This document shows, piece after piece, positions 1 to 20,922 of a stretch of DNA of 34,231 bases. Made by a program: the position numbers and the translations under genes. Positions within the stretch are counted from its first letter, which is position 1, and each line of letters opens with the position of its first letter. The stretch comes from Eremomyces bilateralis CBS 781.70. Taxonomy: Eukaryota. The stretch lies in assembly GCA_010015585.1 (NCBI GenBank), contig ML975191.1. One strand, written 5' to 3'. Below the pieces are notes generated by a model. The model did not search any database. It had not been told where the DNA came from and saw only the letters and a list, made by a program, of their open reading frames with translations.

Positions 1-3000
1 AACTGCGGTAATGCGAACAACGACAAGGCTAGGGCTACCTTCGACTCGATTGACCCTACCCGGTTCCCTATACTTGCAATTCAGGAACCGATGGTCGCCG
101 AAACCAAACCAACAGTCACCTATACACCAAAGAATTTTCACCCAAGCCGACCTATATACTACGGTATACGGGTCGTCTTCTTTATCCACGATAAGATCCT
201 TCTTACAGCTTGGGAATCAAAGCGAGCCTCCGACCACATCGAATGGATCCGCGTTATAACGCGTGACGGACCCCTCAACCTCGTTAACGTATATAATCCA
301 CCAGGGCACGTAGGCCAGCCACAGCTTGAGAAGTGGCCGGAGATCGCAGAAATTCTCTGCGAAATTGGCCAAGAGAACGTTATCCTCCTAGGGGACTTTA
401 ACTGCCATTACCCAGCCTAGGGTGGAACCGGAACCCTAAAGGAGCTAAAGGCAGACCACCTACTCCTCCAAACCGAGCAAGCTAACCTCCAGCTCCTCAA
501 CGAGCAAGGGGTAATAACATGGAAGCGGAACCAAAGCCAGTCGGTCATTGACCTAGCCTTTGCCTCGCCGGAGATCGCCTTACGGATCCTCCTCTACCAC
601 CCACGGCCGGAGTGGTCTACTACAAAGGACCACTTTCCAATCGAGATCCAACTAGATGCCAAGGTTTCCTCACACCAGACGAGCCCAAGGTTCACACTCA
701 AGGATGCCCCGTGGGAAAAAATCCGGGAAGATGTCTCTAGCTCCCAGTGGTATGTGCCAGAACCCCATACTGCGATTGACAACCTTATTAGACTTCTTTA
801 CGGCACCTTAGACAAGCACTGTAAACGGGCGCGACCTTATGACTGGTCTAGACCGGAGTGGTCACCACAGGCAGCAGAGTTCCTGGCTGGCGCCCGCCAG
901 GCCCGACGCCGGCTCCAACGGACCCAGGACCCGGACGACGAACGAGACTGGAAATACCAAAGGAATGCCCTAAGGAGGAAGATGCGTAGTGACGGCCGGA
1001 CGAGATGGAGAAAACTTATCCAGACACTTACTAAAGACGAGAATCACCCGGACTATATATACAACCGAGGGCTCTGGAGACTGAATAAGTGGAGCCAGAA
1101 GACCGCTGGGCAACCCGGTGGGCTTACAGCTATCCCACCACTTAGGCGCACGGAGAACGATCCCCCGACGGGAGACAACCAAGGGAAAGCAGAGATCCTT
1201 GCTACAAAGTTCTTCCCACGGAGCGGTGCCGCTGACCTCCAAGATATAACCAACGAACAGTTCCCACGATTCGATATCGGGCAAGAGGTCACCCCAGATG
1301 AGATCACCCGGATTATCCGCCGGCTACCGAACCAGAAGGCCCCCGGGCCTGACATGATCCCGAACGAGGTACTGAAGGCCCTCTCTGATATCCTAGCCGT
1401 AGACCTAGCCCGGACGGTCACCGCTCTCTTCCGAAGCGGGGAGCTGCNNNNNNNNNNNNNNNNNNNNNNNNNNNNNNNNNNNNNNNNNNNNNNNNNNNNN
1501 NNNNNNNNNNNNNNNNNNNNNNNNNNNNNNNNNNNNNNNNNNNNNNNNNNNNNNNNNNNNNNNNNNNNNNNNNNNNNNNNNNNNNNNNNNNNNNNNNNNN
1601 NNNNNNNNNNNNNNNNNNNNNNNNNNNNNNNNNNNNNNNNNNNNNNNNNNNNNNNNNNNNNNNNNNNNNNNNNNNNNNNNNNNNNNNNNNNNNNNNNNNN
1701 NNNNNNNNNNNNNNNNNNNNNNNNNNNNNNNNNNNNNNNNNNNNNNNNNNNNNNNNNNNNNNNNNNNNNNNNNNNNNNNNNNNNNNNNNNNNNNNNNNNN
1801 NNNNNNNNNNNNNNNNNNNNNNNNNNNNNNNNNNNNNNNNNNNNNNNNNNNNNNNNNNNNNNNNNNNNNNNNNNNNNNNNNNNNNNNNNNNNNNNNNNNN
1901 NNNNNNNNNNNNNNNNNNNNNNNNNNNNNNNNNNNNNNNNNNNNNNNNNNNNNNNNNNNNNNNNNNNNNNNNNNNNNNNNNNNNNNNNNNNNNNNNNNNN
2001 NNNNNNNNNNNNNNNNNNNNNNNNNNNNNNNNNNNNNNNNNNNNNNNNNNNNNNNNNNNNNNNNNNNNNNNNNNNNNNNNNNNNNNNNNNNNNNNNNNNN
2101 NNNNNNNNNNNNNNNNNNNNNNNNNNNNNNNNNNNNNNNNNNNNNNNNNNNNNNNNNNNNNNNNNNNNNNNNNNNNNNNNNNNNNNNNNNNNNNNNNNNN
2201 NNNNNNNNNNNNNNNNNNNNNNNNNNNNNNNNNNNNNNNNACAGAGGGGACTTAAGGCCTTCGACTCCCTGGCGAGGGTAACTTCATCGGTATGGGGACC
2301 ATCCGTCCGGAAATCGAGGCTACTCTACACAGCGGTTGCACGGCCTATTATGACATACGGCGCCCCTATTTGGGGAGTCTGTCAGCAGGGTGAGCCAATC
2401 TCTGAAGGCAAAATGAAAGACCTAGCCAAGGTTCAGAACAAGTGTCTACGAAAGATCCTAGGGGCTTACAAACGGACACCAATCGCCGCGCTTGAGAGAG
2501 AGGCGGACGTTCCCCCAATCGAACTCTACGTCCAAGAACGGGCCGCCCAAAGAGCAGCATCGACGAACACCCACAAGATCACTACCCAGATTGAGGGAGC
2601 CCTGACGCAAGTCTGGGATGCTGCTTCTGCTCCCCCGAGACGAACTCGAGGCCGACCCCGCCGTATCCGGTCTAAACCTGAACCCGCGATGAGTACGCTT
2701 CGGACCCAGTATGACAGACTTCTGTTCCCCCGGCCCGAACCAATTAGAGGATATCAGACACAACAGCGAAAAGGCCCGTACCGGATGATCCAGGACGAGT
2801 ATCGAGCGAAATGGAGGGAGAGATGGCAAGCCGAAGCGGCCAGACCAGGAAGGAGAGCAAGGACATGGAAGGACCCGTGGGAAACCCAGTGCCTTAACCG
2901 GTACGACGGCCTTCAGAAACACGAGGCCTCGGCGCTTATGGCACTACGGACTGAGGTAGTTGGAGTTAAAGGATGGCTCGCAAAAATTGGTGTCCCTGGA

Positions 3001-3276
3001 ATCCACCCAGCGTGTGAGTGCGGTGCCCCCCGACAGTCTCTCTACCATCTCCTTGCATTTTGCCCGCAGCGGACCGACCAGAGGATCGAGCTCCTCCAAC
3101 GAGCTGGAACAACGGACTTTAAGAGGATATTGCATGACAGGGACAAGGTGCGCCACGCAGCAAGGTGGCTGATCGATGCGGGAGGCCTAGAGCAATACCG
3201 GGTGGCCAAGGAAGTTGAGGAGGAGGTAATAGAGGACTGGAAACCGTTCCAGTTCCTCCACGACGTGCCAGAATAA
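1..3276 (+). pseudogene. LINE ORF2 (endonuclease-reverse transcriptase) with one visible premature stop
   Basis: Frame 1 is open except TAG at 418-420, where copy 2 has TGG. The RT core falls in the N gap. Confidence 0.88.
1448..2240. other. Assembly gap (793 N)
   Basis: Run of n. Confidence 1.
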
Positions 3277-3534
3277 GCTCTCCGCGTAGGCGGAAACACC
3301 GACTCTTACGGATAGATGATAAACGTTTAAGATAGTCTACTAAAGGGAGGAGGCGGGATTTTATGTACCCGCAGCCTCAGGGCTACGGGGAAACTTTTGC
3401 CCGCGGCAGACCAGATAGAATATCGTGCTCATAGACCCGAAAGGGATCCAGATAGTACGTTAAATTGATTCTTATTATTATAAATAACATATATTAAAAA
3501 TATTGATGGTATTGAGGTCTACGGAACAAGGAGA

Positions 3535-5428
3535 TCATTTTGGCGTAATTTCGCAGTCCTGTAGGTGTTTGGGGAGGCGTCGAACACGCTGTGGGCGCGC
3601 CCGGTGCCCGCCTTCTTCCACCCCCTCCTGTACCGCTTCTTCACTGATTTGGAGTTCTTGGGGCTGTAGATTTTGGTGTAAAGAGGTCTGTATACGAGGT
3701 TTCTTGACGGTCGGACGGGTTTTCGACTCCTTCTGTAATTGTTGATCCGCTAATCGTGCCTGACGTAATGCCTCTTTCTTCTTCGCTATATGTGCCTTTT
3801 CTTGTTCGCGCAAAGTGCGTGCCTCTAGGCGCTGAATCTTCCTTTCGAGTAGTAATCTTTCTTTCTCCTCTTTTAGCCGCATCCTCTCTAGCTTTTTCTG
3901 CTGTTTTTGGACTTGGAGATCGGATTTTTCCTGCTCTTTTTGTATCTGGAGTTCGCGAGCTCGCTGAATCTTCGAGGGACTAAAGAATTGGGCCTTAATA
4001 CCATCGTTTTCAGCACGAAGGTCATCAAAAACCGGTTTAGCCCGCTTACGTTTCATTTTTTCAGTAACGATAGCCTGCCTTAGGCCCTGATTCTCCGCCC
4101 GTAAGAGAACCATATCGGTTGAAAGCTGTGCGACCGCGGTATACAATTTTCGAGTCTCCGCGGTTACCACATCACCAACTGCCTCACGTACGATCTGCTT
4201 CACATGCCTCCAATCTGAAGAGGATAAGTGAGAATACCCCGATGAAGAATTAGAGCCCGGCCGATGCGGTTCTTCACTCATCCCTAGCGCCCCGAGAACG
4301 ATGGACTCATCCAGTGGATTCAGTCCGGTCTTCCGCCAACTACTCAAGATGTTTTCCTCGGTGAAGGCCTTGCCCCAAGCGATCCAAAATAAGCGGAAAA
4401 AGTCTCTTTTCGAGATAGAATAGAGCCCTTGGCTTTCGGAGATGTGGCGGTTGAGTTCCTGGCCGTAATATACCGCGAGGGGGCTGAAAAGACTGACATC
4501 AAGAGGCTGTAGTCGATGGGTGGTGTGAGGTGGATAACAGCACACTAATATCTTGTTTTTATCGCACCAATCCAGAAATCTCATATTAATGTGGCTTCCA
4601 TGCCCGTCAATCACCAGGAGCCGATACCGCCGCCGCGCTTTTGCCTTGGTATACCGATCGAACACGTTCGTCAGCCAGTTATACCCTAATTCGTCGTTCG
4701 TCCATCCCGTTAGTGATGATGCAAAAAAGGCGGCATGTTTCTGTGCGTCGAAGTCCTGTAACCAAGAGTCCTGGAGATTCCCTGAAACGGCCTGGTAAAT
4801 CAATCCAGGCGGTAGCCACGATCCATCCGCACAAATAGAGGCAAGTATGGTAATCCACTCGCGATTACCATCGGTCGTAGCTGACAAGCTCTTATTTTGC
4901 CTCATAACCTCTTTTGTGACGATGCGTTTCATCTTGGTCATCATCCCGATTAGGAAGCCCTTCTTATCCATATTGTACATATTCTCCGGTACGATCTCAT
5001 ATTCCGCGATTTTTAGGCGTAGTAACTCGTAGAAATCACAATAGTCCTTCGCCTTATCCGCATGAGTCCTGGAGCTTTCGATAATACCAAGATATTTGGC
5101 GTCGAGTAAGGTGGAGTGCCGTTCCACGAATCGGCCCACCCAATTTTTGCCCACCTCCTGTTTTGCGATATCCGACGCGAAATTCCATACCATCGCAGAG
5201 GTAGGGGGAAACCCATGCCTACATATGTCGTTTATATAGGTAATTAGCCTAGATTCTTGGTGGGCGCTCAGTTTGCCCTGGTGTTGGTAGGCTTCATGCC
5301 TGGAGGTAGACTTTCCGATGGCGCCTCGACAAAGTAGAACGATCGACTTGGAACTTCTTTGCAATCGCAGTATAATTAGGCTTTTCTTCCAAGGCTAACG
5401 CAGCAAGAGCTGCCTCAATTGGATCCAT
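3535..5428 (-). pseudogene. pogo/Fot1-family DDE transposase with a frameshift near the N-terminus
   Basis: ATG at 5428 gives the HTH (MDPIEAALAAL...FQVDRSTLSRRHR), out of frame with the 609-aa ORF (shift near 5315). The ORF carries the CENP-B HTH (GKNWVGRF), YNMD(K)KGF, LLVIDGHGSH and HRLQPLDVSLF. Confidence 0.9.
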
Positions 5429-5510: not shown

Positions 5511-5967
5511 AAGACCTCTAGTTATTAATGGTACTGAAACCGCCATCTGTATTTGGTTCAACAAAGAGTACTCCACTACCACCAGGGGCGCCGCCACTAC
5601 CAAGCCATATAGGATTCCTGATCACATCACCTCCATTATCTTTATCTTTCCGAGCGCCGTCAATAGAGTCTAGTGTATCCGTTTCATGTACTGGAGCCGC
5701 GTTCGTTCGTGTCCCGGAGTCCGCCTTAGCAACTGTCGTGGCGTCGCGTATTGCCGGTAGTTCTTGAGTCTTCTTCTTCCTTTCTTCAAGTGTGGATCAG
5801 CCATAGCTTCGACGCGCCAAGGCAGAGCAGTGTAAACCAACCGAAATGCATCTCGCGGGTGGGATCGGATCAATGATGTCTTAATGCGCGCTTCGCGAAA
5901 CAGCACGCGAACGAATCCAATGAGCTACAGTAGAGGTAAGTTAACTAACTTAACTTATAGTTAGTTA

Positions 5968-6222
5968 CGGGACGGTCGAAAGAAGAGAAGGCACAAAGCC
6001 AACAGTACCTCACCCTATCGGAAGAGAAAGCCCTCGTAAAGTATCTATTACAAATGTCGAGGAATGGATTTCCTATTCCGGTTAAGTATCTAGGCTCGCT
6101 AGCATATATCATTGCGTGTCGGCGCTCCTCTGCCGTTCAACCTTCCGGGACGAACGTATCGATCGACGCTCCTGGCAAGAATTGGCCCCAGGCCTTCAAA
6201 AGACGCCATCCCACGGTACAAG
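5968..6222 (+). pseudogene. Fragment of a second pogo-like transposase (CENP-B-type HTH only)
   Basis: GRSKEEKAQSQQYLTLSEEKALVKYLLQMSRNGFPIPVKYLGSLA...PGKNWPQAFKRRHP. Confidence 0.8.
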
Positions 6223-6573
6223 TAATGCTTAACGGTTTATGGTTGCCCTTGATTTTGTCGTTCGAATAAGCTAGCATGTGGCAGTCTGCGACCAGTTTCT
6301 GTCTAGATCACAATTCGGATAAGGTTTGTCCTCTTTCTGGTAACCGATCAAATAATCTTGAGGACTAAATGGGAGAGCAACAAATAGCTCATCTTACTGG
6401 AGCCTTACTCCCCCTTGCTCTTGAAATTCACTGAACCTCACGTCCTATTCAGCCTCTTCGAGCCAACCCGGAGAGATCGCATCGAAAACATTGAAAGAAT
6501 TCAAGTTAAGACCCGAGTCACCAATGATATCGAACCCACCCGGAAAAGGACCCAGAGAAGGGTCCCACGGAGC

Positions 6574-8736
6574 CTACTCTGCTTGCGGCTCACCCTCGCT
6601 ATCGTTCCTGCTAGTACCTGTGGCGAGGAGTGTATCTACAAGCTCCCGAATAAATTTTCCGATGTTGCAAGCAACCGGGCACTCATCCATAACTCCCAGT
6701 ACTTCGATGGCTTGATTGATATACAGAAGAATTGCCGATTTCGGGCGAGCTATCGCTGGTTCTCGGGAAAACGTAGCTACGAGGATAGACAGACCGAAAG
6801 CAATGTATGTCGTATTATTCCACCTGTTACAAGTCAGTCTACTAGTCATACTCAATATGCTAACCCTTTAACGTACCAAGATCGGAAGAAATGATGCGCA
6901 GAATACGTCGAATGGATACACTCGATGATCTCGACGGCGGCGTTCTTGCAATTCGCGGAATATGCGGCTACCTTTTTTGCATCTCTTCCGTTCTTATGGC
7001 CTTTTTGCTCATGGAGAAAAAAAACGTAAAAGAGAACAATTCTTGTGTGTAAATACCCTGGAGCAACCTGTTAGAAGGTGTATGGGCAAGGAATATTTGG
7101 GGGGAGAAGGAGGAAGGTCGTACGCAAATGGAGGACGAGCCTTTGTAGCTCCGGCCAGTAATGATTTCCGAGCAGTAGGCGCGCTTTTGTCGCCCCAGAG
7201 AATGGCTTTGGTCGAATGTTCGGAGGAAGTTCTACTAACCAACTATTCAAGCGGCGTTCGTACTCACCGGCTCGTTCGAGTTTCTCTGACAGCGCTGTCT
7301 CTTCCCAGTAGATCTTCCTTGAGATCTCCTGCAAGATTCTGGACAGCCCAAGCATTACTGAAATGATTGTATTCTCGGATTCATTGTTTACGCTAACCAG
7401 TGGTGGCGGCCTGTTGTGATAAGAATCCAATCCGAGCATGTTTTCCCTGCCTAGGGTGATGCTTAACTCCGTTTCCATTGAGTAGAGATCCCACCACGTT
7501 CGAGAGACAACGACGCTGGGGGAGTCCTGTGGGAAATGGCGGGTTCGGAATGGTGCGATTCGATTGATACCCATTGAGAATGACGTCCGAAGGGCAGTTC
7601 CGAGATAGGTGTATGCAAGATTCGGGTTTAATTGGTGCTGGCAGACCTGTGCCATAATCATTGCAGCCTGAACCGCTTCTAGGTCGTTTAATGACCCTAG
7701 ACGACCCATCGCTAATTCGGCTCTTTCGAAAAGCATAAGCGCCCACGTATTCCGATCCATTCCGTTGATAGAATCCTCTATCCAAGTCCGTGTAAGTGCA
7801 CCAAGTGACAACACGGCGAAATACAATACCTTGAAGCTCTGATGGATCGAGATTCCGCGGCCAGTCCAAAGGGAAGAACATCGCTCTAGGAAAACATGTT
7901 GGTCAAGAATGGGATGGACGTAATGGAGAGTCTTGAAGTAGCTATCGATGAAGAGGAAGGCATAGTGTGGATAGTAGTTTTCTTGGACCTTATCGAAGAC
8001 CCTTAGGGTTTCTCGAAATTTCATAAATGCTTCGTTTTGGAATTCGATGACGGCTTGTCGGCTGAGAATAGGACATCCAAGAAATCGACTCGCAGAGTTT
8101 CTCTCCTTCAGTTTCATGAGGCGGTCTAGGAATGCCAGTGAAGAGGTTCGACCATGAAACTCGAATCTCCTACTCACACCATTGATGTCCATAACGTCGG
8201 TTGAGATGTCGTCCGGCGCTTCTTTGTTCGGTATGTCCACAGGTGCGGCACCCTGCCTTGCTGCTCCAGCGATAGAGTCGATCGTACTATCACCACTCTC
8301 GCTCGGCCATAGTACGTTCAGTTGCGATTGCTGTACTACCACATGTTCTTTCACACTTCCCGTCTGTTTTGGGTCTGTATTGCCTAGCTGTGGGATACCT
8401 TGAATATGAAGTGCAGCCTCTGCCCTCTCGAGGGACTTCTCCAGGTCCTTCACATATCTGTCCAATCATAAGTGTTCTGTCATAAGTACAGAGAGCGACT
8501 ATCTCTTACCGGATTGAATACGGGGAATGGCTGTTAACCTCCCCTTGAAAGATGCATTCCCGTCCTAGTCCTTCAGCAGTAGTGATTGCGGTTAGACCAG
8601 GGACGAGTCCAACATGAGATTATCACTCACTTTGACAATGAAAGCATGGAAGGTGGCCATCGCATTTGTACTTTTTGGCTCGACAAGTATTGCAGGCCTG
8701 GACTACACGTGGGTATCTCCTTTTGTTGACGGGCAT
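6574..8736 (-). CDS. Zn(II)2Cys6 transcription factor with fungal-specific TF (middle homology) domain, 5 exons, about 643 aa
   Basis: Exons 8736-8631, 8570-8510, 8457-7124, 7057-6877 and 6823-6574 splice in frame with GT-AG introns. Motifs: ACNTCRAKKYKCDGHLPCFHCQRLGREC, EFHGRTSS, YFKTLHYVHPILD, SRTWWDLY, FFRSWWNNTTY. Confidence 0.9.
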
Positions 8737-10421: not shown

Positions 10422-10556
10422 GTAGCCACACGCACCCTGGAAAGTCCATCAGTAAGTAGTGGCGGTGTCGTAATGAGCCGAGGTTGAGCCGGGCGGGGAT
10501 TTTGCTGATCCGTCCCCTAAGAGAGTAGATTCGACCCGATAATAGCTTCATATATA

Positions 10557-10980
10557 ACGTATTCCACAAGCGAGTGGCCCATACAAGCGAGTGGCCCAGC
10601 TCATTTTACTAGTAAATTCGACAAAATTCGATATCAATATCTCAACAACCACTGGATAATATAGTCTGAAAACTTAGAGTTAGGTTTTCCTAGCCATTTC
10701 TAGCTTACTATTGAAATATTAAAGCCCTAGCTTTTACAGGTATAGAGATACCTACTTCTTGGCAAGATTTAGAGACCAAATCTCTATATCTTTATAACTA
10801 TAAAAGATAAAGCTCTAAGATTCTAATAATAAGCTAGAAATCGATAGGAAAACCTAATTCTAAGTTTTCAGACTATATTACCCAGTGGTTGTTGAGATAT
10901 TGATATCGAATTTTGTCGAATTTACTAGTAAAATGAGCTGGGCCACTCGCTTGTATGGGCCACTCGCTTGTGGAATACGT
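10557..10980. mobile_element. Fold-back MITE of the Tc1-mariner/Fot1 superfamily (424 bp)
   Basis: TA on both sides. TIR begins ACGTATTCCACAAGCGAGTGGCCCATACAAGCGAGTGGCCC; the inverted arms are near-perfect for more than 110 bp and recognisable for about 190 bp. Confidence 0.93.
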
Positions 10981-11042
10981 TATCAATTTGAGTGGTTATA
11001 ATGTCATATCTAATCTTGAGATACAACGCGTTGGTGAGGTGC

Positions 11043-11064
11043 GCCACTCGCTTGTGGTTGACAT
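11043..11064. repeat. Orphan right TIR of a related Fot1-like element
   Basis: GCCACTCGCTTGTGGTTGACAT+TA resembles the MITE right end GCCACTCGCTTGTGGAATACGT+TA. Confidence 0.65.
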
Positions 11065-11232: not shown

Positions 11233-11264
11233 CGCCAAGTATAATAAACGTTTCCTTCGATCAG

Positions 11265-12032
11265 TGTTGAACTTACGCCCCTTCGCGAGGGAAGCGAAGT
11301 TCGCTAGTGAGTTCCATTTTAGGATTTTGGCGGTGTCAACATTTCGACGAGACCATGTTGTGTATTGCAAGCCGAGAGAGAGAATAGTTCACTGGGCGAT
11401 GTCTACTGCAGACTTTTTTGGTTCTGCTCGAATTGGCGAGGTTGCACAATCATCAGCACGAGAAGATTCAAAACGGGAAAAGAGAGGCTTATATTTCAAG
11501 GTAGCACGATCACCCACTCCGATCGACTTCTTCTAAGATAAATGTCTAGGATGCACATATGTTTGCGATGTTCAGCAAGGACAGAGGGAAAACGGAGCTT
11601 TGTATTCGGTTCACAAAAGACGAGAAGGGAAAGAGTGAGGTACTACAAGACAGGTAGGCTGGCCAACAGGATTCCTTGCAAGATCATTCGCTTACATCTT
11701 AATAGGGGCCAGGTAACATTTTACGAAAATATGGAAGGTTCTCTTTACGAAAACTGCTTTCTCTTTTGCCTAGTAATACTCTTAGCCCGACCGACTTCAG
11801 CTTCTGCGACAGCTTTTAAATATCGAGATCAAAGAGCAACAGAGATTCTTTAAAATACACTGGAAGCATGGGTTCCGCAATAAACCCTTCTTTGAATGCC
11901 CAACGAATGACCTAGGAGAAGTTGAAAAGGCAGAAGCGGTCCACCGAAGGCATAAAGACGCATGTTATCGTGCAGGTTTACCCAATGCCCCAAACTTTCA
12001 CGACTTTAGGCGAACGGGCCTCAATAATGCTG
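11265..12032 (+). pseudogene. DUF3435-type tyrosine recombinase (Starship captain-like), 5' exons; N-terminus missing
   Basis: GSARIGEVAQSSAR...RGLYFK|D (first catalytic Arg), KDEKGK, KIHWK...KPFF, YRAGLPNAPNFHDFRR (HxxR). Introns at about 11501-11549 and 11653-11706; frameshift near 11830. Confidence 0.85.
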
Positions 12033-12184
12033 GTATATATATAAGATCTTTGCTACTGTGATTACTACTAATGAACATTTTTCTGCAAAACAGCCCACAA
12101 CTTAGAAATTAGCTGAGATTATGATCGTAATCGATTCTTCACACTTCATTCAATTATAATCAACTATTACAGCCCTCCCAAATA

Positions 12185-13765
12185 ATGGTTAGAGGGCGCA
12201 TGAGGGGGAAAGGCCCGCAGGCCAAAGACGCGTCCCCGACGCGTCCCCAGCAGGCGGACCACCCACGACCCAACACCCGCAACGGAGTAGGAGAACAAAA
12301 TGGACGGATGGATGAGGGGCGGATGCTCCAAATTATGGAAAACCATATAAAACTCGCGTTAGAGAGCTGCCGTGGATGGGCTAGGGCGGGGTCGCTCCGT
12401 GGAGTTCTTAAGGCTTACCTAACGCCCGTTCTCCGGCTTATTCCGGAGCTAGTATAGAGAAAGAGTATAGGAAAGGCGCAGGCGGGAATACCCGCCAGGG
12501 ACCCAGCGATAGGTTAAATATTAGAGCGTCTTAGACGTATTGAAGCTGGAATCGCGAAAGACCGCGGTCGCCCAGCCGCGGCCCTAACTACCGAGACACG
12601 AACCTAGAGTAAGATCGCCGTAGGGGGAAAGACCAAGGCGGTCGTTGAAGTACGCCTCTCTAAAATGGCAGGAGCCGTAGAAGAGACGACGGAAGAGAAA
12701 CTATAGAGAATCAAGAAGGTAATCCTAGACGCGAAAGCGATTATCCCCTACTACCGGGCAGCCGGTAAGGTGTCGGTCGTGGTTCCTACTACTACCCGAC
12801 GGGACTAGATTATCGCTACTGGAATCGCTAGGGATAACGGCATTAAACTAATCCGTCGCCCGAAGCTACTTATAGTAATGGGTATCCCGATTTACACATA
12901 GATTACAACCGGTAAAAGTAAGGGGAACACCGAATAGGCGAGACAGATGTCGAACTAAAACGCTATCAAAATTAAACGAATCTCCTGGCTCTATAAGAAA
13001 GAGAAGCTGGCGGCTATCCGGAATGCTGGGTCACAGACGAAGGGATCAATTATTATCGAGGTAGCTACCGAAACTGACGTGATACGTCTTATTAAGGACG
13101 GCTTCCTATATGGCGCCCTATAGCTCCTAGCCAAACTATAGGACGTTACTCTCCGGGCGATCTAGTGCTTCCGCTATTAGAAATAGGGCTATACGCAGTC
13201 CGTTTATAACGCGGACAGCGACACCTGTGGGCGCTGCGCAAAACACTACCCTATAAGGGGATATATAATACAAGACCTTTAAGAGGCAAGGTGCGCAGGG
13301 TATAAGAAACCTGGGCACTTTGCCTAGATGACCAGAAGCTACGCGGTATATAAATCCTTCGTAGCTGGCCAGCGAGCTATAGAAAACCGCCTTAATAAAG
13401 CTACCCTCGCCGTCTACCGGGGGCAAAACCAAAACCAAAACCAAAACCAAAACCAAAATGTCACAACCCACCAGTTCCGCCACGATAACGATGGATATAT
13501 CGTTATTAGCAACACCCAGAAGCGGAGGAGGGCGGGACCTAGGAGGCCCTTAGGAATCACGGTAGTAGCCCGAGCCCTAGGGTAGCAGCGACTCTAGCTC
13601 TCGGCTAGTTAACCGGAAGACTTTATATCCGGCATTAGTACTTCTACCTTTACGATACCTACCGGAAAGGATATAACCGGAGAGGACACGATATCTACCG
13701 AAAAGGACATAACCGGAGAGGATACGACACTTACCGGAAAGGATAATACCCCTAGTACTTAATAA
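12185..13765 (+). pseudogene. LINE ORF1 (gag-like, zinc knuckles), RIP-inactivated
   Basis: ATG at 12185; degenerate QCFRCQKWGHTQSVC knuckle near 13163-13207; (CAAAAC)n QN tract; many TAG/TAA stops. Confidence 0.85.
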
Positions 13766-16700
13766 TAGGGACCGGCATCCTCTAATATAACTGCGGTAAT
13801 GCGAACAACGACAAGGCTAGGGCTACCTTCGACTCGATTGACCCTACCCGGTTCCCTATACTTGTAATTCAGGAACCGATGGTCGCCGAAACCAAACCAA
13901 CAGTCACCTATACACCAAAGAATTTTCACCCAAGCCGACCTATATACTACGGTATACGGGTCGTCTTCTTTATCTACGATAAGATCCTTCTTACAGCTTG
14001 GGAATCAAAGCGAGCCTCCGACCACATCGAATGGATCCGCGTTATAACGCGTGACGGACCCCTCAACCTCGTTAACGTATATAATCCACCAGGGCACGTA
14101 GGCTAGCCACAGCTTGAGAAGTGGCCGGAGATCGTAGAAATTCTCTGCGAAATTGGCCAAGAGAACGTTATCCTCCTAGGGGACTTTAACTACTATTACC
14201 CAGCCTGGGGTAGAACCGGAACCCTAAAGGAGCTAAAGGTAGACTACCTACTCCTCTAAACCGAGTAAGCTAACCTCTAGCTCCTTAACGAGTAAGGGGT
14301 AATAATATAGAAGCGGAACTAAAGCTAGTCGGTTATTAACCTAGCCTTTGCCTCGCCGGAGATCGCCTTACGGATCCTCCTCTACTACCTACGGCCGGAG
14401 TAGTCTACTATAAAGGACCACTTTCTAATCGAGATCTAACTAGATGCTAAGGTTTCCTTATACTAGACGAGCCTAAGGTTCACACTCAAGGATGCCCCGT
14501 AGGAAAAAATCCGGGAAGATGTCTCTAGCTCCTAGTAGTATGTGCCAGAACCCTATACTACGATTAACAACCTTATTAGACTTCTTTACGGCACCTTAGA
14601 CAAGCACTATAAACGGGCGCGACCTTGTGACTAGTCTAGACCGGAGTAGTCACCATAGGCAGCAGAGTTCCTAGCTGGCGCCCGCTAGGCCCGACGCCGG
14701 CTCTAACGGACCTAGGACCCGGACGACGAACGAGACTAGAAATACTAAAGGAATGCCCTAAGGAGGAAGATGCGTAGTAACGGCCGGACGAGATAGAGAA
14801 AACTTATCTAGACACTTACTAAAGACGAGAATTACCCGGACTATATATATAACCGAGGGCTCTAGAGACTAAATAAGTAGAGCCAGAAGACCGCTAGGCA
14901 ACCCGGTAGGCTTACAGCTATCCTACTACTTAGGCGCACGGAGAACGATCCCCCGACGGGAGATAACTAAGGGAAAGCAGAGATCCTTGCTATAAAGTTC
15001 TTCCTACGGAGCGGTGCCGCTGACCTCTAAGATATAACCAACGAATAGTTCCCACGATTCGATATCGGGCAAGAGGTTACCCTAGATAAGATCACCCGGA
15101 TTATCCGCCGGCTACCGAACCAGAAGGCCCCCGGGCCTAACATGATCCCGAACGAGGTACTAAAGGCCCTCTCTAATATCCTAGCCGTAGACCTAGCCCG
15201 GACGGTCACCGCTCTCTTCCGAAGCGGGGAGCTACTAGCAGTTCTAAAGGAATCTACTACGGTGGTACTAAGGAAGGACAAGAAAAAGGACTACTCTCTT
15301 CTAAGCAGCTACCGCCCTATTACTCTTAAAAACACGGTTATAAAGCTAATCGAGAAAATCCTCGCAGATCGACTGATCACTGAAGCGGAAATACGAGATC
15401 TGATTCCCTAGAACCAAATGGGAGCTCGAAAGGAGAGATCTACTCTCTCCGCCCTAGAACTCCTTACCGGGACTATATAGACGGCGTAGCACGTAAAGAA
15501 GTCTGTGGTCTCTATACTTGGGCTTGACCTTGCTGGAGCTTTTGATAACGTCTCTTACCCCCGGCTGCTCTAGGTCCTTCGTCGGATAGGATATCCCGAA
15601 TAGATTATCTAGATAATCGCATCTTTCTTAACCGGACGGCGAACAAAGATTCTCTTCTCGGACTTTAAGAGCCGCTAGTTCGACACGGAGACAGGGATCC
15701 CGCAAGGCTCTACCCTATCACCCGCGCTGTTTATCCTATTTATTGAGATTGGAATATCTGTAGAGGCTCAATCTTCCACGATTGGAATATCTACAAAGGC
15801 TCAACCTCAGGCACAGTGGGTAAGGAACTCCATATAGTTCAAAGGAAGAAAGATAAGACGAAGAACGATACCAGCTGTAGCTGTTGTTCTCAGAATGACA
15901 GTCTAATATCTGTAGAATAGTTGAGTTGTGATTTACTAAATAACAGTACAGGACTGCTCATTATATAGCCTTCCTGCCTATCTGTTTGCAGCAAATTCCC
16001 TACCTTTGTCTTTAGAAGAATGTTCGTACAAAGGAAAGGTTGGTAAAAGAGATTGACCACCTTGAAAGGGGTCATCCAAACATCAAAGGATCTTGATGCC
16101 TGAGGCATCAAGTTCCACACAGGTTGGAAACAAAGACAACAGCTTGTCGTTGAAGACAGCCATGTCAACACTATTTATATCTAACCTACTATATCAGTTT
16201 AAGGATGTTCAGGGTAACGTGCTCGGGTTCGGGTTCGTTAATAATACTACACTGGTTACCTAGGGAGATACGGCAGTAGCTAACTGCCAACGACTAACTG
16301 CGGCCTACGATACTTGCCTGGAATGGGCGTCACGGTTCGGGGCTAAATTTGCCCCGGATAAGTACTAGATTATCTACTTTACTAAGAAACGTAATATTTC
16401 CGCTAATCTCCGGTCTACGATCTAAATATAGGGATATTAAGCTAAATTAGTTATATCCCTCCGGGTACTAGGAGTTTGGCTCGACCCTTCCCTCTTATAG
16501 AAGGACTATATCCTCCGGGTAATATAGAGGGGACTTAAGGCCTTCGACTCCCTGGCGAGGGTAACTTTATCGGTATAGGGACTATCCGTCCGGAAATCGA
16601 GGCTGCTCTACATAGCGGTTGCACGGCCTATTATAATATACGGCGCCCCTATTTGGGGAGTCTGTTAGTAGGGTGAGCTAATCTCTGAAGGCAAAATGAA

Positions 16701-17559
16701 GGACCTAGCTAAGGTTCAGAACAAGTGTCTACGAAAGATCCTAGGGGCTTATAAACGGACACCAATCGCCGCGCTTGAGAGAGAGGCGGACGTTCCCCCA
16801 ATCGAACTCTACGTCCAAGAACGGGCCGCCCAAAGAGCAGCATCGACGAATACCCACAAGATCACTACCTAGATTAAGGGAGCCCTAACGCAAGTCTAGG
16901 ATACTACTTCTGCTCCCCCGAGACGAACTCGAGGCCGACCCCGCCGTATCCGGTCTAAACCTAAACCCGCGATAAGTACGCTTCGGACCTAGTATAACAG
17001 ACTTCTATTCCCCCGGCCCGAACTAATTAGAGGATATTAGATATAATAGCGAAAAGGCCCGTACCGGATGATCTAGGACGAGTATCGAGCGAAATAGAGG
17101 GAGAGATAGTAAGCCGAAGCGGCCAGACTAGGAAGGAGAGTAAGGACATAGAAGGACCCGTAGGAAACCCAGTACCTTAACCGGTACGACGGCCTTTAGA
17201 AATACGAGGCCTCGGCGCTTATAGTACTACGGACTAAGGTAGTTAGAGTTAAAGGATGGCTCGCAAAAATTAGTATCCCTGGAATCCACCCAGCGTATGA
17301 GTACGGTGCCCCCCGACAGTCTCTCTACTATCTCCTTACATTTTGCCCGCAGCGGACCGACCAGAGGATCGAGCTCCTCTAACGAGCTGGAACAACGGAC
17401 TTTAAGAGGATATTGCATAACAGGGACAAGGTGCGCCACGCAGCAAGGTGGCTGATCAATGCGGGAGGCCTAGAGCAATACCGGGTGGCCAAGGAAGTTA
17501 AGGAGGAGGTAATAGAGGACTAGAAACCGTTCCAGCTCCTCCACGACGTGCCAGAATAA
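13765..17559 (+). pseudogene. LINE ORF2 (APE + RT), RIP-inactivated and interrupted by a solo LTR
   Basis: SYRPITL, LDLAGAFDNV, GIPQGSTLSPALFILFI; the catalytic FVDD reads FVNN (GTTAATAAT, about 16237-16245). Confidence 0.92.
15741..16170. mobile_element. Solo LTR (430 bp, Copia-like termini) inserted in the LINE RT domain
   Basis: T(A)TTGAGAT...ATGTCAACA termini (left TG altered to TA); 5-bp TSD CTATT; removal restores LFILFISN; internal TTGATGCCTGAGGCATCAA palindrome. Confidence 0.9.
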
Positions 17560-17791
17560 GCTCTCCGCGTAGGCGGAAACACCGACTCTTACGGATAGAT
17601 AATAAACGTTTAAGATAGTCTACTAAAGGGAGGAGGCGGGATTTTATATACCCGCAGCCTCAGGGCTACGGGGAAACTTTTGCCCGCGGCAGACCAGATA
17701 GAATATCGTGCTCATAGACCCGAAAGGGATCCAGATAGTACGTTAAATTGATTCTTATTATTATTATTATTACTACTAATTGTTCTCTCAG

Positions 17792-20136
17792 ATGGACAAA
17801 ACTCGGAACCGTCCCGCATGCGACTTGCAGGTCACGCCAAAGCAGGCATTTTCCGCGGGCATTACCAACCCAGAGAAACCATCGACGGGGCGGCAAACTT
17901 TCTTGACAAAGATAAGAGAACGGACGTCCTTGAAATTAGCCGACAGCTGAACATTCCCTACATCCCATATCTGCTGCAGTCCCTGCCCGCGGAAGAGCTC
18001 CATAACCTTCAGCGTAGCAGAGAATATCAGAAATTGCAAAGGCAGATAGATGGGGAAACGAAAATATTCGAAGTTACCAAGGATGCTGGAATCGCTAAAA
18101 CTAGATAGATTAAAACGGTTGCGGGCAAGCCAGGCCTACGATAATCCGCCCAGATACGAGCATGAGATATACTCTCGCTTCAGATTTATGCTGTCGCGAG
18201 AAAGGCGTCGCCTCGAGGTCAACTTGTTCGAAGAGGTGCCGTTAAGGAGCCCAATTGGTATGTAAGTTATCGAAGATCTCCTCACTCTCTACCTTCGGGA
18301 TAAAGAGGTGGAATTTCGACTGGGTTTAGAGCCAGACCGGTGCTTTTGTTCCCTGCCCAGTCACAAGTACGACTAGAGACATATTCTGGACTGCTACAAG
18401 GCCTATTACACTAAGATTCATGGATTCGCCGAGCTCTGCTTCCTTTACAATGTCTGGATTCATGACCGGGAGGAATGGGAGGGGCACTGCCAAGGCCACA
18501 TCGACTATATTGCCCAGTTTCCTATTTGGGTTGATCCGCTCGTATATGACGGAGTTCTTGCGGTTGCGGGATTTTGCGAGTGTTGCTTAATCAATCCGCG
18601 ATTACCAGCTTCTGCACGAATGCGTCAATTTCCGTGGCGCCATACCTGGTACCGTCATTATCAATCGCACTACGAGGATTCCAAGTTCGAACCGAAATGC
18701 CGCCATGGATCGTTTACTTCCCTCCTTGAGCTACAGCTCCACCTCCATGACCGCCACGGTGTGCGTATCCCTGAGATATCAAGGCAGTGTGGGCAAGGTA
18801 AGCGGCGCAGACCGGAAATTGCAGAACCTTACTTCCGCAGAAACTGCAAGCGACGCAAGGCCTGCAGTGACAACGAAGAGGAGCAGGAGACGACATGTGT
18901 ATTCCTAAATAGCACCGTTGATTCCATTGCCTCGAATCTAGTTGAACAACGCTCGGCAAAGTTGTCAGTAAGAACTCCTTCACCGCCAGCCGGCTTCGAC
19001 TGCGCACCGATATTCGACAGCGGTTGCTCTGTCTATCCTGATATTGATCTGGTAAACTCGGATGCTGCTTCTGGACCGTACTATACCTTGAGCGACGAGC
19101 CAAAACCCGGCCCTACCGACCAGGGTTCTCAGCGTATTCCTACGCCGGATTTCATTTCGGACGCTGAATTTATAGATATTGACGATTGTTCCGTTGATTT
19201 GGGAGATAACCTTGAATCAGCTGCTTTAATAACGGAAATCGAAAAGATCGACCTTACCGGCAGAGTTAAGATCGGAGAATTGGCGGACATGGTGTCTGAG
19301 CTAATCCAGGATAGAAGATGATCGCAAACACGATGGTAATCCGGCTGGGATCCTGGCTGAGCCGGATTTCGCTGCCATGTCCGGTCCGGATTCCGAGGAT
19401 GCTGCTGACCCTGAGAATGACACCTGCCTCTCCATTAAACATTTCGCTGGCCACAGGAGAGCTGATGTCTATGACGGCCACAATCGGACGGTGACGCTGC
19501 CGGATTATGCGTTCTCTAGTCTCAAAGGTGCTAGCGAGGTGCATAAACCTGATTATCTTGTGCTACGTGGAGCTCAGGGTGAGTAGCAAAACTTTTTCCA
19601 GAGGAGACAGAGTGGCTTAATTTGTTTTTAATGCAGACCATATCGCTACACCCGCACACGATGGGCGACGGGTCAGTGAGCATGACCGCGCCAATTGTGA
19701 ACAGCATGACAGCCGATCGCCGCACGACCGAGATGTTCCCATCGATCCACTGCTAGTATCGAATGGCGTTATCGCTACTTTTAGGAGTAGGTCTTCACCG
19801 TCGACTTTAAAGCTATATACAAGTTAATCAATTCTAGACAGCCTTCCAAAGGGTACAGGAGATTCTCCTATCGAGGGCATCGCCAAATACCCATTACTGC
19901 GGGTAGAAGATGATGAGGTGGAGTCAGAAGGTGACGAAGAGGAGTAAGAGGTTGAAGCTATTGTCGGTCATAAACCAACAGACGGGACGTATAGAGTAAA
20001 ATGGAAAGGATGGCCAAGTTCAGCAAACACGTGAGAGCCCATTGAGCACCTTCGAAAATGCCAGAATTTGATAGAAGAGTTTCATCGGCAATACTATCGT
20101 TGTCGTCAAAGGCCCAGAAAGAGGAGACGAGCATAG
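17792..20136 (+). pseudogene. DUF3435-type tyrosine recombinase, 3' exons: GH/Y motifs, Cys/His zinc-finger region, acidic linker, chromodomain, basic tail
   Basis: RMRLAGHAKAGIFRGHYQPRETIDGAANFL; LLQSLPAE; GFAELCFL..W......W..HC..H; AGFCECCL...RMRQF; LQLHLHDRHG. Stops and frameshifts at about 18106, 18263, 18374 and 19300. Introns 19579-19636 and 19787-19837 keep frame into the chromodomain. Confidence 0.8.
19936..20090 (+). pseudogene. Chromodomain (degenerate)
   Basis: EEE*EVEAIVGHKPTDGTYRVKWKGWPSSANT*EPIEHLRKCQNLIEEFH, with stops at 19945-19947 and 20032-20034 where conserved aromatic residues are expected. Confidence 0.88.
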
Positions 20137-20922
20137 AGAACAGGAGAGACGTTCCATATTCGTACCTAGCCCCGATCTCTCTCAGATCTGGGTGAAAATG
20201 CAAAGCTTGAGGAAGGATTCACTTATTAGAGCCTACTAGGTCGAATTCTCTCAAGGCTCGGAAGAGAATAGGGAGAGGACGTTAGATTAGAGGACAAGAC
20301 ACTTAGGATTGCGGTCTACTCTACGAAAGTACTCTTCATGACTTTCAAGAGTTCACAATTTAGACTATTAATAAGGATCGCAGGCTTTAACATTTAGCTT
20401 CAAATTCTAGAGCTCAGTGAAATGAGGTGAAGTCGAAGCGAAAAGCTAGGTTTTCGTTCGAGAAACCATCTCTATATCGCCTCCTTTGTACGATGAACGC
20501 TCAATCAGCGTGTACTCCATCAAAGTAGAAGTTATTCCGTTGAGCCTGACTTCCAGCTTCTCTAGATTGATCCGCCGGTTTTCGAGTCGAGTCCCAGCAT
20601 GAATCCTTACAGTCTAGGTCAGCTCCTATCCAGGGATCTTCAAGGGAGCATTACAGATCACTGTATCGGTTGAAGATTGCTGATGGCTTAGTGCTCATCG
20701 GGTTAATATAATCCTGTTTTACTGGGTCGCAGGAGTATCTCGATCATATGAAGGTGCAAACTTTGCAAAACTTGCGAAGAGCATTTCAAAATCCCCGGTA
20801 GTCTTATACATGTGAGTAGAGGGTGTTTCCTCTAATTGTTCCGGCACGCTCATGTGTTCCATCATGCAGGGGGAGATTACCAATGCATGGTCAGACAAAT
20901 TTTGTATATGCACCTACAAACA

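What the first reader, a model, noticed from the sequence alone, without database searches (positions are those of the whole stretch)
19300..20136. Recombinase appears C-terminally fused to a chromodomain and NLS
Seen: one frameshift near 19300 plus two GT-AG introns (19579-19636, 19787-19837) carry the frame through an acidic linker (IDPLL, EDDEVESEGDEEE) into a clear chromodomain and RPRKRRRA-stop. Established: chromodomains read methylated H3K9/H3K27, and chromoviral integrases use them for heterochromatin targeting. Inference: a tyrosine recombinase-Zn finger-chromodomain architecture could steer integration or excision to heterochromatin, which fits this TE-dense locus. I cannot tell how often this fusion has already been described.
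Basis: partly seen in the sequence, partly recalled or inferred. Interest (0 to 1): 0.8.

Follow-up and report, generated by a model that had tools for sequence, protein, structure and literature searches.

The report
Dead Starship-type recombinase gene with chromodomain
This is a decayed copy of a fungal transposon recombinase gene whose family really does end in a chromatin-reading chromodomain, an architecture already published for the Enterprise/Kirc "captains" of Starship elements, so the locus is ordinary.

Summary
The chromodomain (19948-20088, Pfam Chromo 52 bits) and the basic tail ending at TAG 20134-20136 are real. Both proposed introns (19579-19636, 19787-19837) are spliced out in a 100%-identical contig of a public run.

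The "frameshift near 19300" is better read as a third short intron (19266-19314) that has lost its GT donor and is retained in the RNA contig. In a relative's locus (L001) the same stop lies inside a clean 52-nt GT-AG intron. A 7-exon model there gives one open 1,050-aa protein: tyrosine recombinase, Zn-finger module, linker, chromodomain, basic tail. P0047 (Apiospora phragmitis, 956 aa) has DUF3435 and Chromo in one annotated protein.

So the fusion is native to the family. Database models that stop at the 19321-equivalent (P0002, and probably P0005 and P0008) read into that intron.

The window copy is dead: a 5.7-kb LINE sits in an intron, and it has a frameshift, nonsense codons and a missing N-terminus; the LINE copy inside it carries the RIP mutation signature.

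The architecture and the heterochromatin-targeting idea are already published (PMC8092012; PMC11162782).

The parts
11234..12032 (+). Decayed front part of the tyrosine-recombinase (DUF3435-type) coding region. The motifs SARIGE and FHDFRR are still readable, and the middle part has several stops. The first ~90 residues of relatives were not found upstream.
   Evidence: tblastn with P0001 residues 90-345, 42% identity, E 1e-44. N-terminal pieces of 8 relatives found nothing significant upstream of 11234. P0001 itself carries PF11917 at 30.8 bits.
12033..17791 (+). Intron of the recombinase gene (GTATAT...TCTCAG, natively 51 nt) holding a 5.7-kb non-LTR retrotransposon (body 12073-17768). It has a 12-bp target-site duplication, ATTACTACTAAT, at 12061-12072 and 17769-17780.
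   Evidence: The duplication was found exactly twice in the window. Positions 13789-17764 are 95% identical to the LINE copy at 1-3481. The protein alignment resumes at 17788. L001 has a 56-nt intron at the same protein position.
17792..18066 (+). Recombinase C-terminal catalytic part (RMRLAGHAKAGIFRGHYQPRE, with the presumed catalytic Tyr). It ends in a true frameshift at about 18059-18066.
   Evidence: P0001 residues 345-437 match in frame 1 and residues 438-828 in frame 2, with overlapping ends and no missing residues. L001 has one uninterrupted exon here.
18059..19265 (+). Coiled linker, Cys/His-rich Zn-finger module (about 18377-18790) and acidic/Ser-rich linker ending in IDLTG. It contains nonsense codons at 18263-18265 (relatives have Q) and 18374-18376 (relatives have W).
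   Evidence: 225 homologues at E<=1e-3; invariant C/H columns; stops shown against P0001.
19266..19314 (+). Third intron (49 nt, ends GATAG) whose donor reads TT instead of GT. It is retained, so translation runs on to TGA 19319-19321.
   Evidence: It is homologous to the 52-nt GTGAGA...GATAG intron of L001, 7312-7363. Skipping it gives IDLTGR|EDDRKHDGN, against L001 IDLTGT|DDDKDDGD. It is retained in RNA contig 3.
19315..19578 (+). Linker exon. Frame 0 includes ATG 19377.
   Evidence: An open frame of 93 codons. No homologues were found among longer proteins. Similarity to the L001, P0007 and P0013 linkers is only weak.
19579..19636 (+). Intron, 58 nt, GTGAGT..CAG.
   Evidence: Skipped in contig 4 of run X1, which is 100% identical on both sides.
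19637..19786 (+). Linker exon carrying the family's IDPxL motif (PHDRDVPIDPLLVSN).
   Evidence: P0010 has PHDPD..YIDPALISN. IDP motifs lie in the tails of relatives.
19787..19837 (+). Intron, 51 nt, GTAGGT..TAG.
   Evidence: Skipped in contig 4 of run X1. L001 has a 47-nt intron at the matching place, after IDPILTKG.
19838..20136 (+). Last exon: acidic patch, HP1-type chromodomain (19948-20088), basic tail RPRKRRRA and stop TAG 20134-20136. It is broken by TAA 19945-19947 and TGA 20032-20034.
   Evidence: Pfam Chromo 52.1 bits. It is 44.6% identical to the intact chromodomain exon of L001, E 4.7e-15.

Best explanation
The region 11234-20136 (+) is a dead copy of a Kirc-like fungal tyrosine-recombinase gene, of the DUF3435 or Starship 'captain' type. 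Its native product is one polypeptide: recombinase, Cys/His Zn-finger module, a disordered acidic linker with IDLTG and IDPxL motifs, one HP1-type chromodomain and a basic tail. The chromodomain belongs to the recombinase gene and is reached by splicing three short introns, not by a frameshift.

In this copy the first of those three introns has lost its GT donor and is retained, so the message stops at 19319-19321. The gene is also broken by a LINE inserted into an upstream intron, a frameshift near 18060, at least four nonsense codons in the parts read here and further stops in 11500-11800, and loss or decay of the N-terminus. The LINE copy inside the gene bears the RIP signature. The locus is still transcribed and its two good downstream introns are still spliced.

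The following steps are inferred, not shown. In intact relatives the chromodomain would bind methylated histone H3 tails and the Zn finger would bind DNA, biasing integration towards heterochromatin, and the basic tail would act as a nuclear import signal. No protein with any of these functions can be made from this copy.
For: Family architecture. Of the 150 listed representatives homologous to the Zn-finger ORF (225 in all at E<=1e-3), 9 carry Pfam Chromo and 13 carry DUF3435 at E<=1e-4, and 1 (P0047) carries both. P0016 adds a sub-threshold DUF3435 match (E 0.005).

L001. It is 100% identical to P0002 over 5670-7364. The stop that ends P0002 sits just past a 52-nt GT-AG intron. A 7-exon model with six GT-AG introns of 47-61 nt gives an uninterrupted 1,050-aa ORF ending in a chromodomain, and that exon scores 43.7 bits for Pfam Chromo. 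The L001 linker exon has no ATG.

Independent model. P0013, a RefSeq model from Lindgomyces, runs through IDLTG without a break. It aligns with the spliced L001 tail at z 7.3, with 0 of 1000 shuffles as good.

Window. Both downstream introns are spliced in a contig of run X1, and the 19266-19314 stretch is retained in another contig. The window chromodomain resembles the L001 one (E 4.7e-15) and those of P0064 and P0055 (E 1e-10 and 4e-8 in a 157-protein set).

Decay. RIP: 132 of 132 differences between the two LINE copies are transitions, and 127 are C>T or G>A towards the copy inside this gene. Of 73 C/T sites 72 are followed by A, and of 59 G/A sites 57 are preceded by T.

Literature. Kirc is DUF3435/tyrosine recombinase + Zn finger + C-terminal chromodomain (PMC8092012). 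[quoted passage not shown]
Against: Three gene models (P0002, P0005 and the window's own P0008) stop at or near the 19321-equivalent. Only P0002's DNA could be inspected.

There is no RNA evidence that the 52-nt L001 intron is spliced. In the window the equivalent stretch is retained.

The linkers are barely alike. Window linker against L001 linker gives z 1.97, with 148 of 3000 shuffles as good. The L001 tail against the P0001 tail gives z -0.8. The 93-aa linker exon found no homologue.

Pfam found nothing directly on the window's recombinase pieces, so DUF3435 membership is by homology to P0001 and others.

Only 9 of 150 relatives show Chromo. Many relatives therefore lack it or are truncated models, and I cannot say which.

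Run X1 is only guessed to be RNA; the splicing itself is the evidence.

No element boundaries, no 5S rDNA or tRNA target and no typical Starship accessory genes were found in the window. A Starship around the gene is therefore not shown.
Confidence: 0.85

Rival explanations
1. There are two genes. The recombinase/Zn-finger protein truly ends at 19321. A separate small chromodomain protein starts at ATG 19377, comparable to the stand-alone CHROMO genes reported at the far end of the Sanctuary and Frontier Starships.
For: The stop at 19319-21 is present in RNA contig 3. ATG 19377 is in frame. P0002, P0005 and P0008 end there. RNA contigs 3 and 4 do not overlap, leaving a hole at 19370-19389. Stand-alone chromodomain genes in Starships are in print (PMC12506042 passages; PMC11857905 passages).
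Against: The intact relative L001 has no ATG anywhere in the linker exon or before the chromodomain core, and a canonical 52-nt intron joins the frames. P0013 and P0047 are continuous. Similarity to L001 begins upstream of ATG 19377: EDDRKHDG against DDDKDDGD.
Confidence: 0.07
2. The two forms are regulated. The stop-bearing intron is deliberately retained part of the time, or bypassed by +1 ribosomal frameshifting at the shared AGA-TGA-T. That would give a short recombinase without chromodomain and basic tail, and a long one with them.
For: The window and L001 both run into TGA within a few codons after the intron's 3' end, in the same AGATGAT context. Retention is seen in the window's RNA.
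Against: The TGA follows simply from Asp codons (GAT GAT) read out of frame. The window's retention is explained by its lost donor. P0007 reads straight through this stretch in frame and without a stop; if the stretch is the same intron there, as I infer from the protein sequence alone, its length would be a multiple of three, so a stop on retention is not conserved. No paper held the terms 'Starship', 'captain' and 'intron retention' together.
Confidence: 0.05
3. The chromodomain is a leftover of a Ty3/Gypsy chromovirus integrase that happens to lie downstream of the recombinase remnant.
For: Chromoviral integrases end in chromodomains (established knowledge; Gao et al. 2008, seen only as a reference-list entry). 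The locus is rich in transposable elements.
Against: No RT, RNase H or integrase domain appeared in the 54 window ORFs scanned (54 of 183 ORFs of at least 60 aa), or in the pieces upstream of the chromodomain. Two spliced short introns lie immediately upstream in the same transcript. The same chromodomain follows the same recombinase gene in L001 and P0047. The best solved matches to the L001 chromodomain are HP1 chromodomains.
Confidence: 0.01

Closest known systems
Kirc, the tyrosine recombinase ('captain') of the Enterprise Starship of Podospora, and Enterprise-family captains (Vogan et al. 2021, PMC8092012; Gluck-Thaler & Vogan 2024, PMC11162782)
   Same: The domain order is the same: DUF3435/tyrosine recombinase, central Zn-finger region, C-terminal chromodomain. 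Kirc copies are also reported degraded, interrupted by transposable elements and RIP-mutated. The heterochromatin-targeting idea is the same.
   Different: Membership of the Enterprise clade was not tested, because no reference captain sequences were at hand. No cargo element, target-site duplication or 5S rDNA target was found here. The IDLTG/IDPxL linker and the stop-bearing intron that truncates database models do not appear in the passages I read.
HhpA of Hephaestus, the experimentally mobilising Starship captain (Urquhart et al. 2023, PMC10104507)
   Same: It is a DUF3435-type tyrosine recombinase. HhpA-GFP is nuclear, it is required for excision, and its element is vulnerable to RIP (passages).
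   Different: The passages I read mention no chromodomain for HhpA. [quoted passage not shown]
Chromoviral (Ty3/Gypsy) integrases such as MAGGY
   Same: A C-terminal chromodomain on a DNA-integrating enzyme, proposed to tether integration to H3K9-methylated chromatin.
   Different: The catalytic domain there is a DDE integrase in an intron-less pol gene flanked by LTRs. None of that is present here.
HP1 chromodomain (Drosophila HP1, PDB 1kna/1kne)
   Same: This is the best solved match to the relative's chromodomain, E 4e-12. The three aromatic positions that form the methyl-lysine cage in HP1 (recalled knowledge) are F, W, Y in L001.
   Different: In the window the first cage position is the stop codon 19945-47. 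There is no chromo-shadow domain, and the domain is attached to a recombinase.
Cryptons (tyrosine-recombinase DNA transposons; Kojima & Jurka 2011, seen only as a citation in PMC8092012)
   Same: A tyrosine recombinase as the only recognisable mobility gene.
   Different: Classical Cryptons are small, and their accessory domain differs (GCR1_C-type, recalled). No Crypton boundaries were defined here.

Membership tests
Kirc-type / Enterprise-family Starship captain | DUF3435-type tyrosine-recombinase domain with the catalytic R..H-x-x-R..Y residues | tested here: met
   Window 11234-12031 and 17788-18066 align with P0001 (E 1e-44 and 3e-130), which carries PF11917 at 30.8 bits. ARIGE, HDFRR and GHYQPRE are readable. 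Pfam on the window pieces themselves gave no hit, so the evidence is by homology.
Kirc-type / Enterprise-family Starship captain | Central Zn-finger region | tested here: met
   There are invariant and near-invariant Cys/His columns in the 11-sequence alignment A1. Several relatives give zf-C2H2_jaz hits. The search found 225 homologues of this module.
Kirc-type / Enterprise-family Starship captain | C-terminal chromodomain in the same polypeptide | tested here: met
   Met for intact relatives: P0047 and the L001 1,050-aa model. In the window it holds only as an ancestral reading, because the copy has a retained intron and two stops.
Kirc-type / Enterprise-family Starship captain | First gene at the 5' end of a large cargo-carrying element bounded by direct repeats or a target-site duplication (a palindromic site or 5S rDNA in this family) | tested here: inconclusive
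   No 5S rRNA or tRNA was found. No terminal repeats link the flanks. No DUF3723, NLR or patatin-type accessory genes appeared among the 54 ORFs scanned. No whole genome is held for finding an empty site.
Kirc-type / Enterprise-family Starship captain | Phylogenetic placement inside the Enterprise captain clade | not tested
Chromo domain (Pfam PF00385) | Score above the curated cut-off (25.1 bits) | tested here: met
   52.1 bits with X at two stops. The intact L001 exon scores 43.7 bits.
Chromo domain (Pfam PF00385) | Three aromatic cage residues for methyl-lysine binding (positions recalled from HP1) | tested here: not met
   In the window the first position is the stop 19945-47 and the other two are W, W. 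L001 has F, W, Y aligned to HP1, so the feature is met in the relative only.
Chromovirus (Ty3/Gypsy) integrase chromodomain | RT, RNase H and rve integrase upstream in an intron-less pol, flanked by LTRs | tested here: not met
   No such domains were found. Two spliced introns lie directly upstream.

The most novel reading that the evidence does not exclude
The short intron right after the IDLTG motif, whose retention ends the reading frame a few codons later (seen in the window and in L001; P0005 only inferred from its protein model), is a conserved switch. When retained it gives a recombinase/Zn-finger protein without chromodomain and basic tail. When spliced it gives the chromatin-reading, nuclear form. 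Splicing would thereby control where or whether the element integrates.
Probability: 0.07. Interest if true: 0.55.

Novelty: new member of a known kind. Interest (0 to 1): 0.2.

Why it matters
For biology it matters little. A tyrosine recombinase with a Zn finger and a chromodomain, and the idea that it steers giant Starship transposons to heterochromatin, are already in print, and this copy is a RIP-affected pseudogene.

Two practical points follow. First, automatic gene models of this family can stop in an unrecognised 49-52-nt intron, shown here for P0002 and its locus L001 and inferred for P0005 and P0008. That hides the chromodomain, so counts of chromodomain-bearing captains made from predicted proteins (here 9 of 150) may be underestimates. 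Second, L001 and P0047 offer intact natural versions for testing the still untested histone-binding hypothesis.

Tried and rejected
- **Whole-genome search.** No genome is held for this window, so copy number, empty sites and element ends could not be examined.
- **Word-indexed protein search with the 93-aa linker exon.** It found nothing among 146 candidates.
- **Word-indexed protein search with the chromodomain exon.** It found 1 hit (an HP1-like protein, P0158) among 46 candidates. This is uninformative about the nearest chromodomains.
- **P0001 tail against the window tail.** No significant similarity. The L001 tail against the P0001 tail gave z -0.8.
- **ESM Atlas with the X-containing chromodomain translation.** The tool turned it away and I did not resend it. 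The Atlas search with P0047 returned DUF3435 clusters of Ascomycota, none of them listing Chromo among its common families.
- **Rfam and ARAGORN.** No 5S rRNA or tRNA was found as a possible Starship target.
- **Sequencing runs.** No RNA holder is listed on record. X1 is a guessed RNA run. X2-X4 hold next to none of the words.
- **Earlier findings of this scan.** Nothing on this genome or this sequence. The word search returned other DUF3435 cases that did not affect this reading.
- **Canonical GT..AG pair at 19240-19330.** Checked by hand for one that would join frame 2 to frame 0 in the window. None exists: the GTTAAG donor at 19265 gives the wrong frame.
- **Programmed +1 frameshifting at AGA-TGA-T.** Considered and ranked low, because a canonical intron explains L001.
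- **Literature on intron retention in captains.** No paper held all three terms.
Full report
**What is in the sequence**

The window is fungal DNA. It has intron-split GH11 xylanase, cutinase, fungal-rhodopsin and Zn-cluster transcription-factor genes, and its first 20 kb is rich in transposable elements. I scanned 54 of the 183 stop-to-stop ORFs of at least 60 aa.

In the flagged stretch the + strand reads as follows:
- Frame 2 is open from 18377 to TGA 19319-19321.
- Frame 0 is open from 19305 to 19586.
- Frame 1 is open from 19621 to 19827.
- Frame 1 then runs from 19837 to TAG 20134-20136.

Read with X at its two internal stops (TAA 19945-47, TGA 20032-34), the last piece matches Pfam Chromo at 52.1 bits, E 6.3e-14, residues 38-84, which is nt 19948-20088. 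The other five pieces match no Pfam family.

The two proposed introns have good fungal splice sites and keep the frame:
- 19579-19636 is GTGAGT...CAG, 58 nt.
- 19787-19837 is GTAGGT...TAG, 51 nt.

**RNA evidence**

One public run (coded X1) holds 73% of the sampled words of 18300-20200. Its type is only guessed to be RNA. Laid on 17700-20400, its contigs are 100% identical to the window. One 914-nt contig skips exactly these two stretches with GT..AG ends. That contig keeps both in-frame stops.

Another contig covers 18950-19369 without a gap. The stop at 19319-21 and the frame change are therefore in the transcript too. The locus is thus transcribed and spliced but cannot encode the fused protein. 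A hole at 19370-19389 separates these two contigs.

**The upstream gene**

Searches with the 314-aa ORF returned 7 longer proteins and 225 representatives at E<=1e-3, of which 150 were listed. P0001 (1,000 aa, carrying DUF3435) maps on the window in three pieces:
- residues 90-345 on 11234-12031;
- residues 345-437 on 17788-18066;
- residues 438-828 on 18059-19318.

The 5.7-kb gap between the first two pieces is a non-LTR retrotransposon. It is 95% identical to the copy at 1-3481. It sits inside a native 51-nt intron (GT 12033-34, AG 17790-91) and has a 12-bp target-site duplication at 12061-12072 and 17769-17780.

Further damage to the gene:
- a frameshift at about 18060;
- nonsense codons at 18263-65 (relatives have Q) and 18374-76 (relatives have W);
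- several stops in 11500-11800;
- no trace of the first ~90 residues upstream of 11234.

The two LINE copies differ at 132 of 2,684 aligned sites. All 132 differences are transitions, and 127 are C>T or G>A towards the copy inside this gene. Of 73 C/T sites 72 are followed by A, and of 59 G/A sites 57 are preceded by T. This is the RIP signature.

**Is the chromodomain part of the recombinase gene?**

P0002, P0005 and the window's own annotated model P0008 all end at the 19321-equivalent.

Other evidence points the opposite way. Pfam on all 150 listed representatives found Chromo in 9, DUF3435 in 13 and both in 1:
- P0047 (Apiospora phragmitis XP_066708206.1, 956 aa) has DUF3435 at residues 176-451, the Zn-finger module at 547-684, two chromo stretches and a basic tail.
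- P0016 has a partial, sub-threshold DUF3435 match, the Zn-finger module and two chromo stretches.
- P0055 and P0064 have a single chromodomain. It resembles the window's at E 4e-8 and 1e-10 in the 157-protein set.

**The decisive locus**

A metagenome scan returned one locus, L001. It encodes P0002 at 100% identity over 5670-7364.

In L001 the text that ends P0002 (…IDLTGTGEIYICQIFDISKLMKDR, then three stops) begins at a GTGAGA donor (7312). It contains a GATAG acceptor (7363). Removing this 52-nt intron joins IDLTGT to DDDKDDGDIRRASRDDSGFVSPS…SSIDPILTKG. A second, 47-nt intron (7526-7572, GTACGT…CTGAC…TAG) then leads into an acidic patch, an uninterrupted chromodomain and the tail RKAKRRRRCRK before the stop. 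That chromodomain exon scores 43.7 bits for Pfam Chromo.

Adding four GT-AG introns in the recombinase part gives a 7-exon model. It runs from ATG 4402 to TAA 7869-71 and yields one open 1,050-aa frame. The linker exon of L001 has no ATG, so its chromodomain cannot be a separately started protein.

P0013 (Lindgomyces ingoldianus XP_033548574.1) passes IDLTG without a break. It aligns with the spliced L001 tail at z 7.3, with 0 of 1000 shuffles as good. For the linker alone the figures are z 3.5 and 9 of 2000.

**Back to the window**

The stretch homologous to the L001 intron is 19266-19314 (49 nt, ending GATAG). Skipping it gives IDLTGR|EDDRKHDGN…, parallel to L001. Its first bases are TT, where the L001 intron begins GT. 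No canonical GT..AG pair in this neighbourhood joins the two frames. This fits its retention in the RNA contig.

The 'frameshift near 19300' is therefore an intron with a lost donor. I infer, but could not check without DNA, that P0005 and P0007 also read into this intron.

Weak points remain:
- The window and L001 linkers are barely alike (z 1.97, 148 of 3000 shuffles as good).
- The 93-aa linker exon has no detectable homologue.
- P0001's long tail resembles neither the window nor L001.

**What it works like**

The best solved match to the L001 chromodomain is the Drosophila HP1 chromodomain (1kna, E 4e-12). In that alignment L001 has F, W and Y at the positions I recall as the HP1 methyl-lysine cage. 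In the window the first of these positions is the stop codon. A basic C-terminal tail recurs in the window, L001, P0055 and P0047.

It is inference only that the intact protein binds H3K9-methylated chromatin and is imported into the nucleus by the basic tail.

**What is known**

- Vogan et al. 2021 (PMC8092012; section 7 read) describe Kirc, the first ORF of the Enterprise element. It has DUF3435/tyrosine recombinase, a central Zn finger and a C-terminal chromodomain. They give logos from 279 homologues and report Kirc copies degraded by transposable elements and RIP.
[quoted passage not shown] They also state that most Enterprise-family elements of Aspergillus target 5S rDNA.
- Urquhart et al. 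2023 (PMC10104507; passages) show that a captain is nuclear and needed for transposition, and that Starships are hit by RIP.
- Stand-alone chromodomain genes at Starship ends are also reported (PMC12506042; PMC11857905).

I found no 5S rDNA, tRNA, terminal repeats or typical accessory genes here. A surrounding Starship is therefore not shown, and clade membership was not tested.

**Verdict**

It is a published architecture, and this copy is an ordinary RIP-affected pseudogene. The one useful by-product is that an unrecognised short intron truncates at least one database model (P0002) and hides its chromodomain; the same is inferred for P0005 and P0008.

Noticed in passing
window 10554-10983: A 430-bp stretch that is 88% complementary to itself, a long-armed fold-back or MITE-like element. 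It lies just upstream of the recombinase remnant, where the gene's N-terminus should be. A further partial copy of its 'ccactcgcttgt' motif sits at about 11041-11062.
   Followed up: partly
window 1-3481 and 13789-17764: Two copies of one non-LTR retrotransposon, 95% identical. All 132 differences are transitions with the CpA>TpA RIP signature, almost all of them mutating the copy inside the recombinase gene. The first copy is cut by the window start and holds a run of 793 N at 1448-2240.
   Followed up: yes
window 3538-5394 (-): An uninterrupted 619-aa ORF with DDE_1 (90 bits) and Tc5 HTH domains. It looks like an intact pogo/Fot-type transposase.
   Followed up: no
relatives P0002-P0013, P0015, P0025, P0030 and window 19247-19261, 19741-19755: Two short motifs recur in the otherwise fast-evolving linker of this recombinase family. 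One is [IV]DLT, which resembles a SUMO-interaction motif (recalled). The other is [ILV]DPxL, between the Zn-finger module and the chromodomain. No function is known.
   Followed up: partly
proteins P0029, P0153, P0161: Relatives of the Zn-finger module carry other C-terminal partners. P0029 has Chromo plus a 2EXR domain. P0153 has DUF3435 plus an RTC4-like domain. P0161 (865 aa, named 'carbonic anhydrase', Ilyonectria robusta) shares a 90% cluster with the Zn-finger plus double-chromo protein P0095, which suggests a merged gene model.
   Followed up: no
L001 3321-3623 (-) and 10146-10856 (-): The neighbours of the intact relative's recombinase gene include an APH/choline-kinase-like fragment upstream and a ferritin-like-domain ORF downstream. 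I could not tell whether these are cargo or host genes.
   Followed up: no
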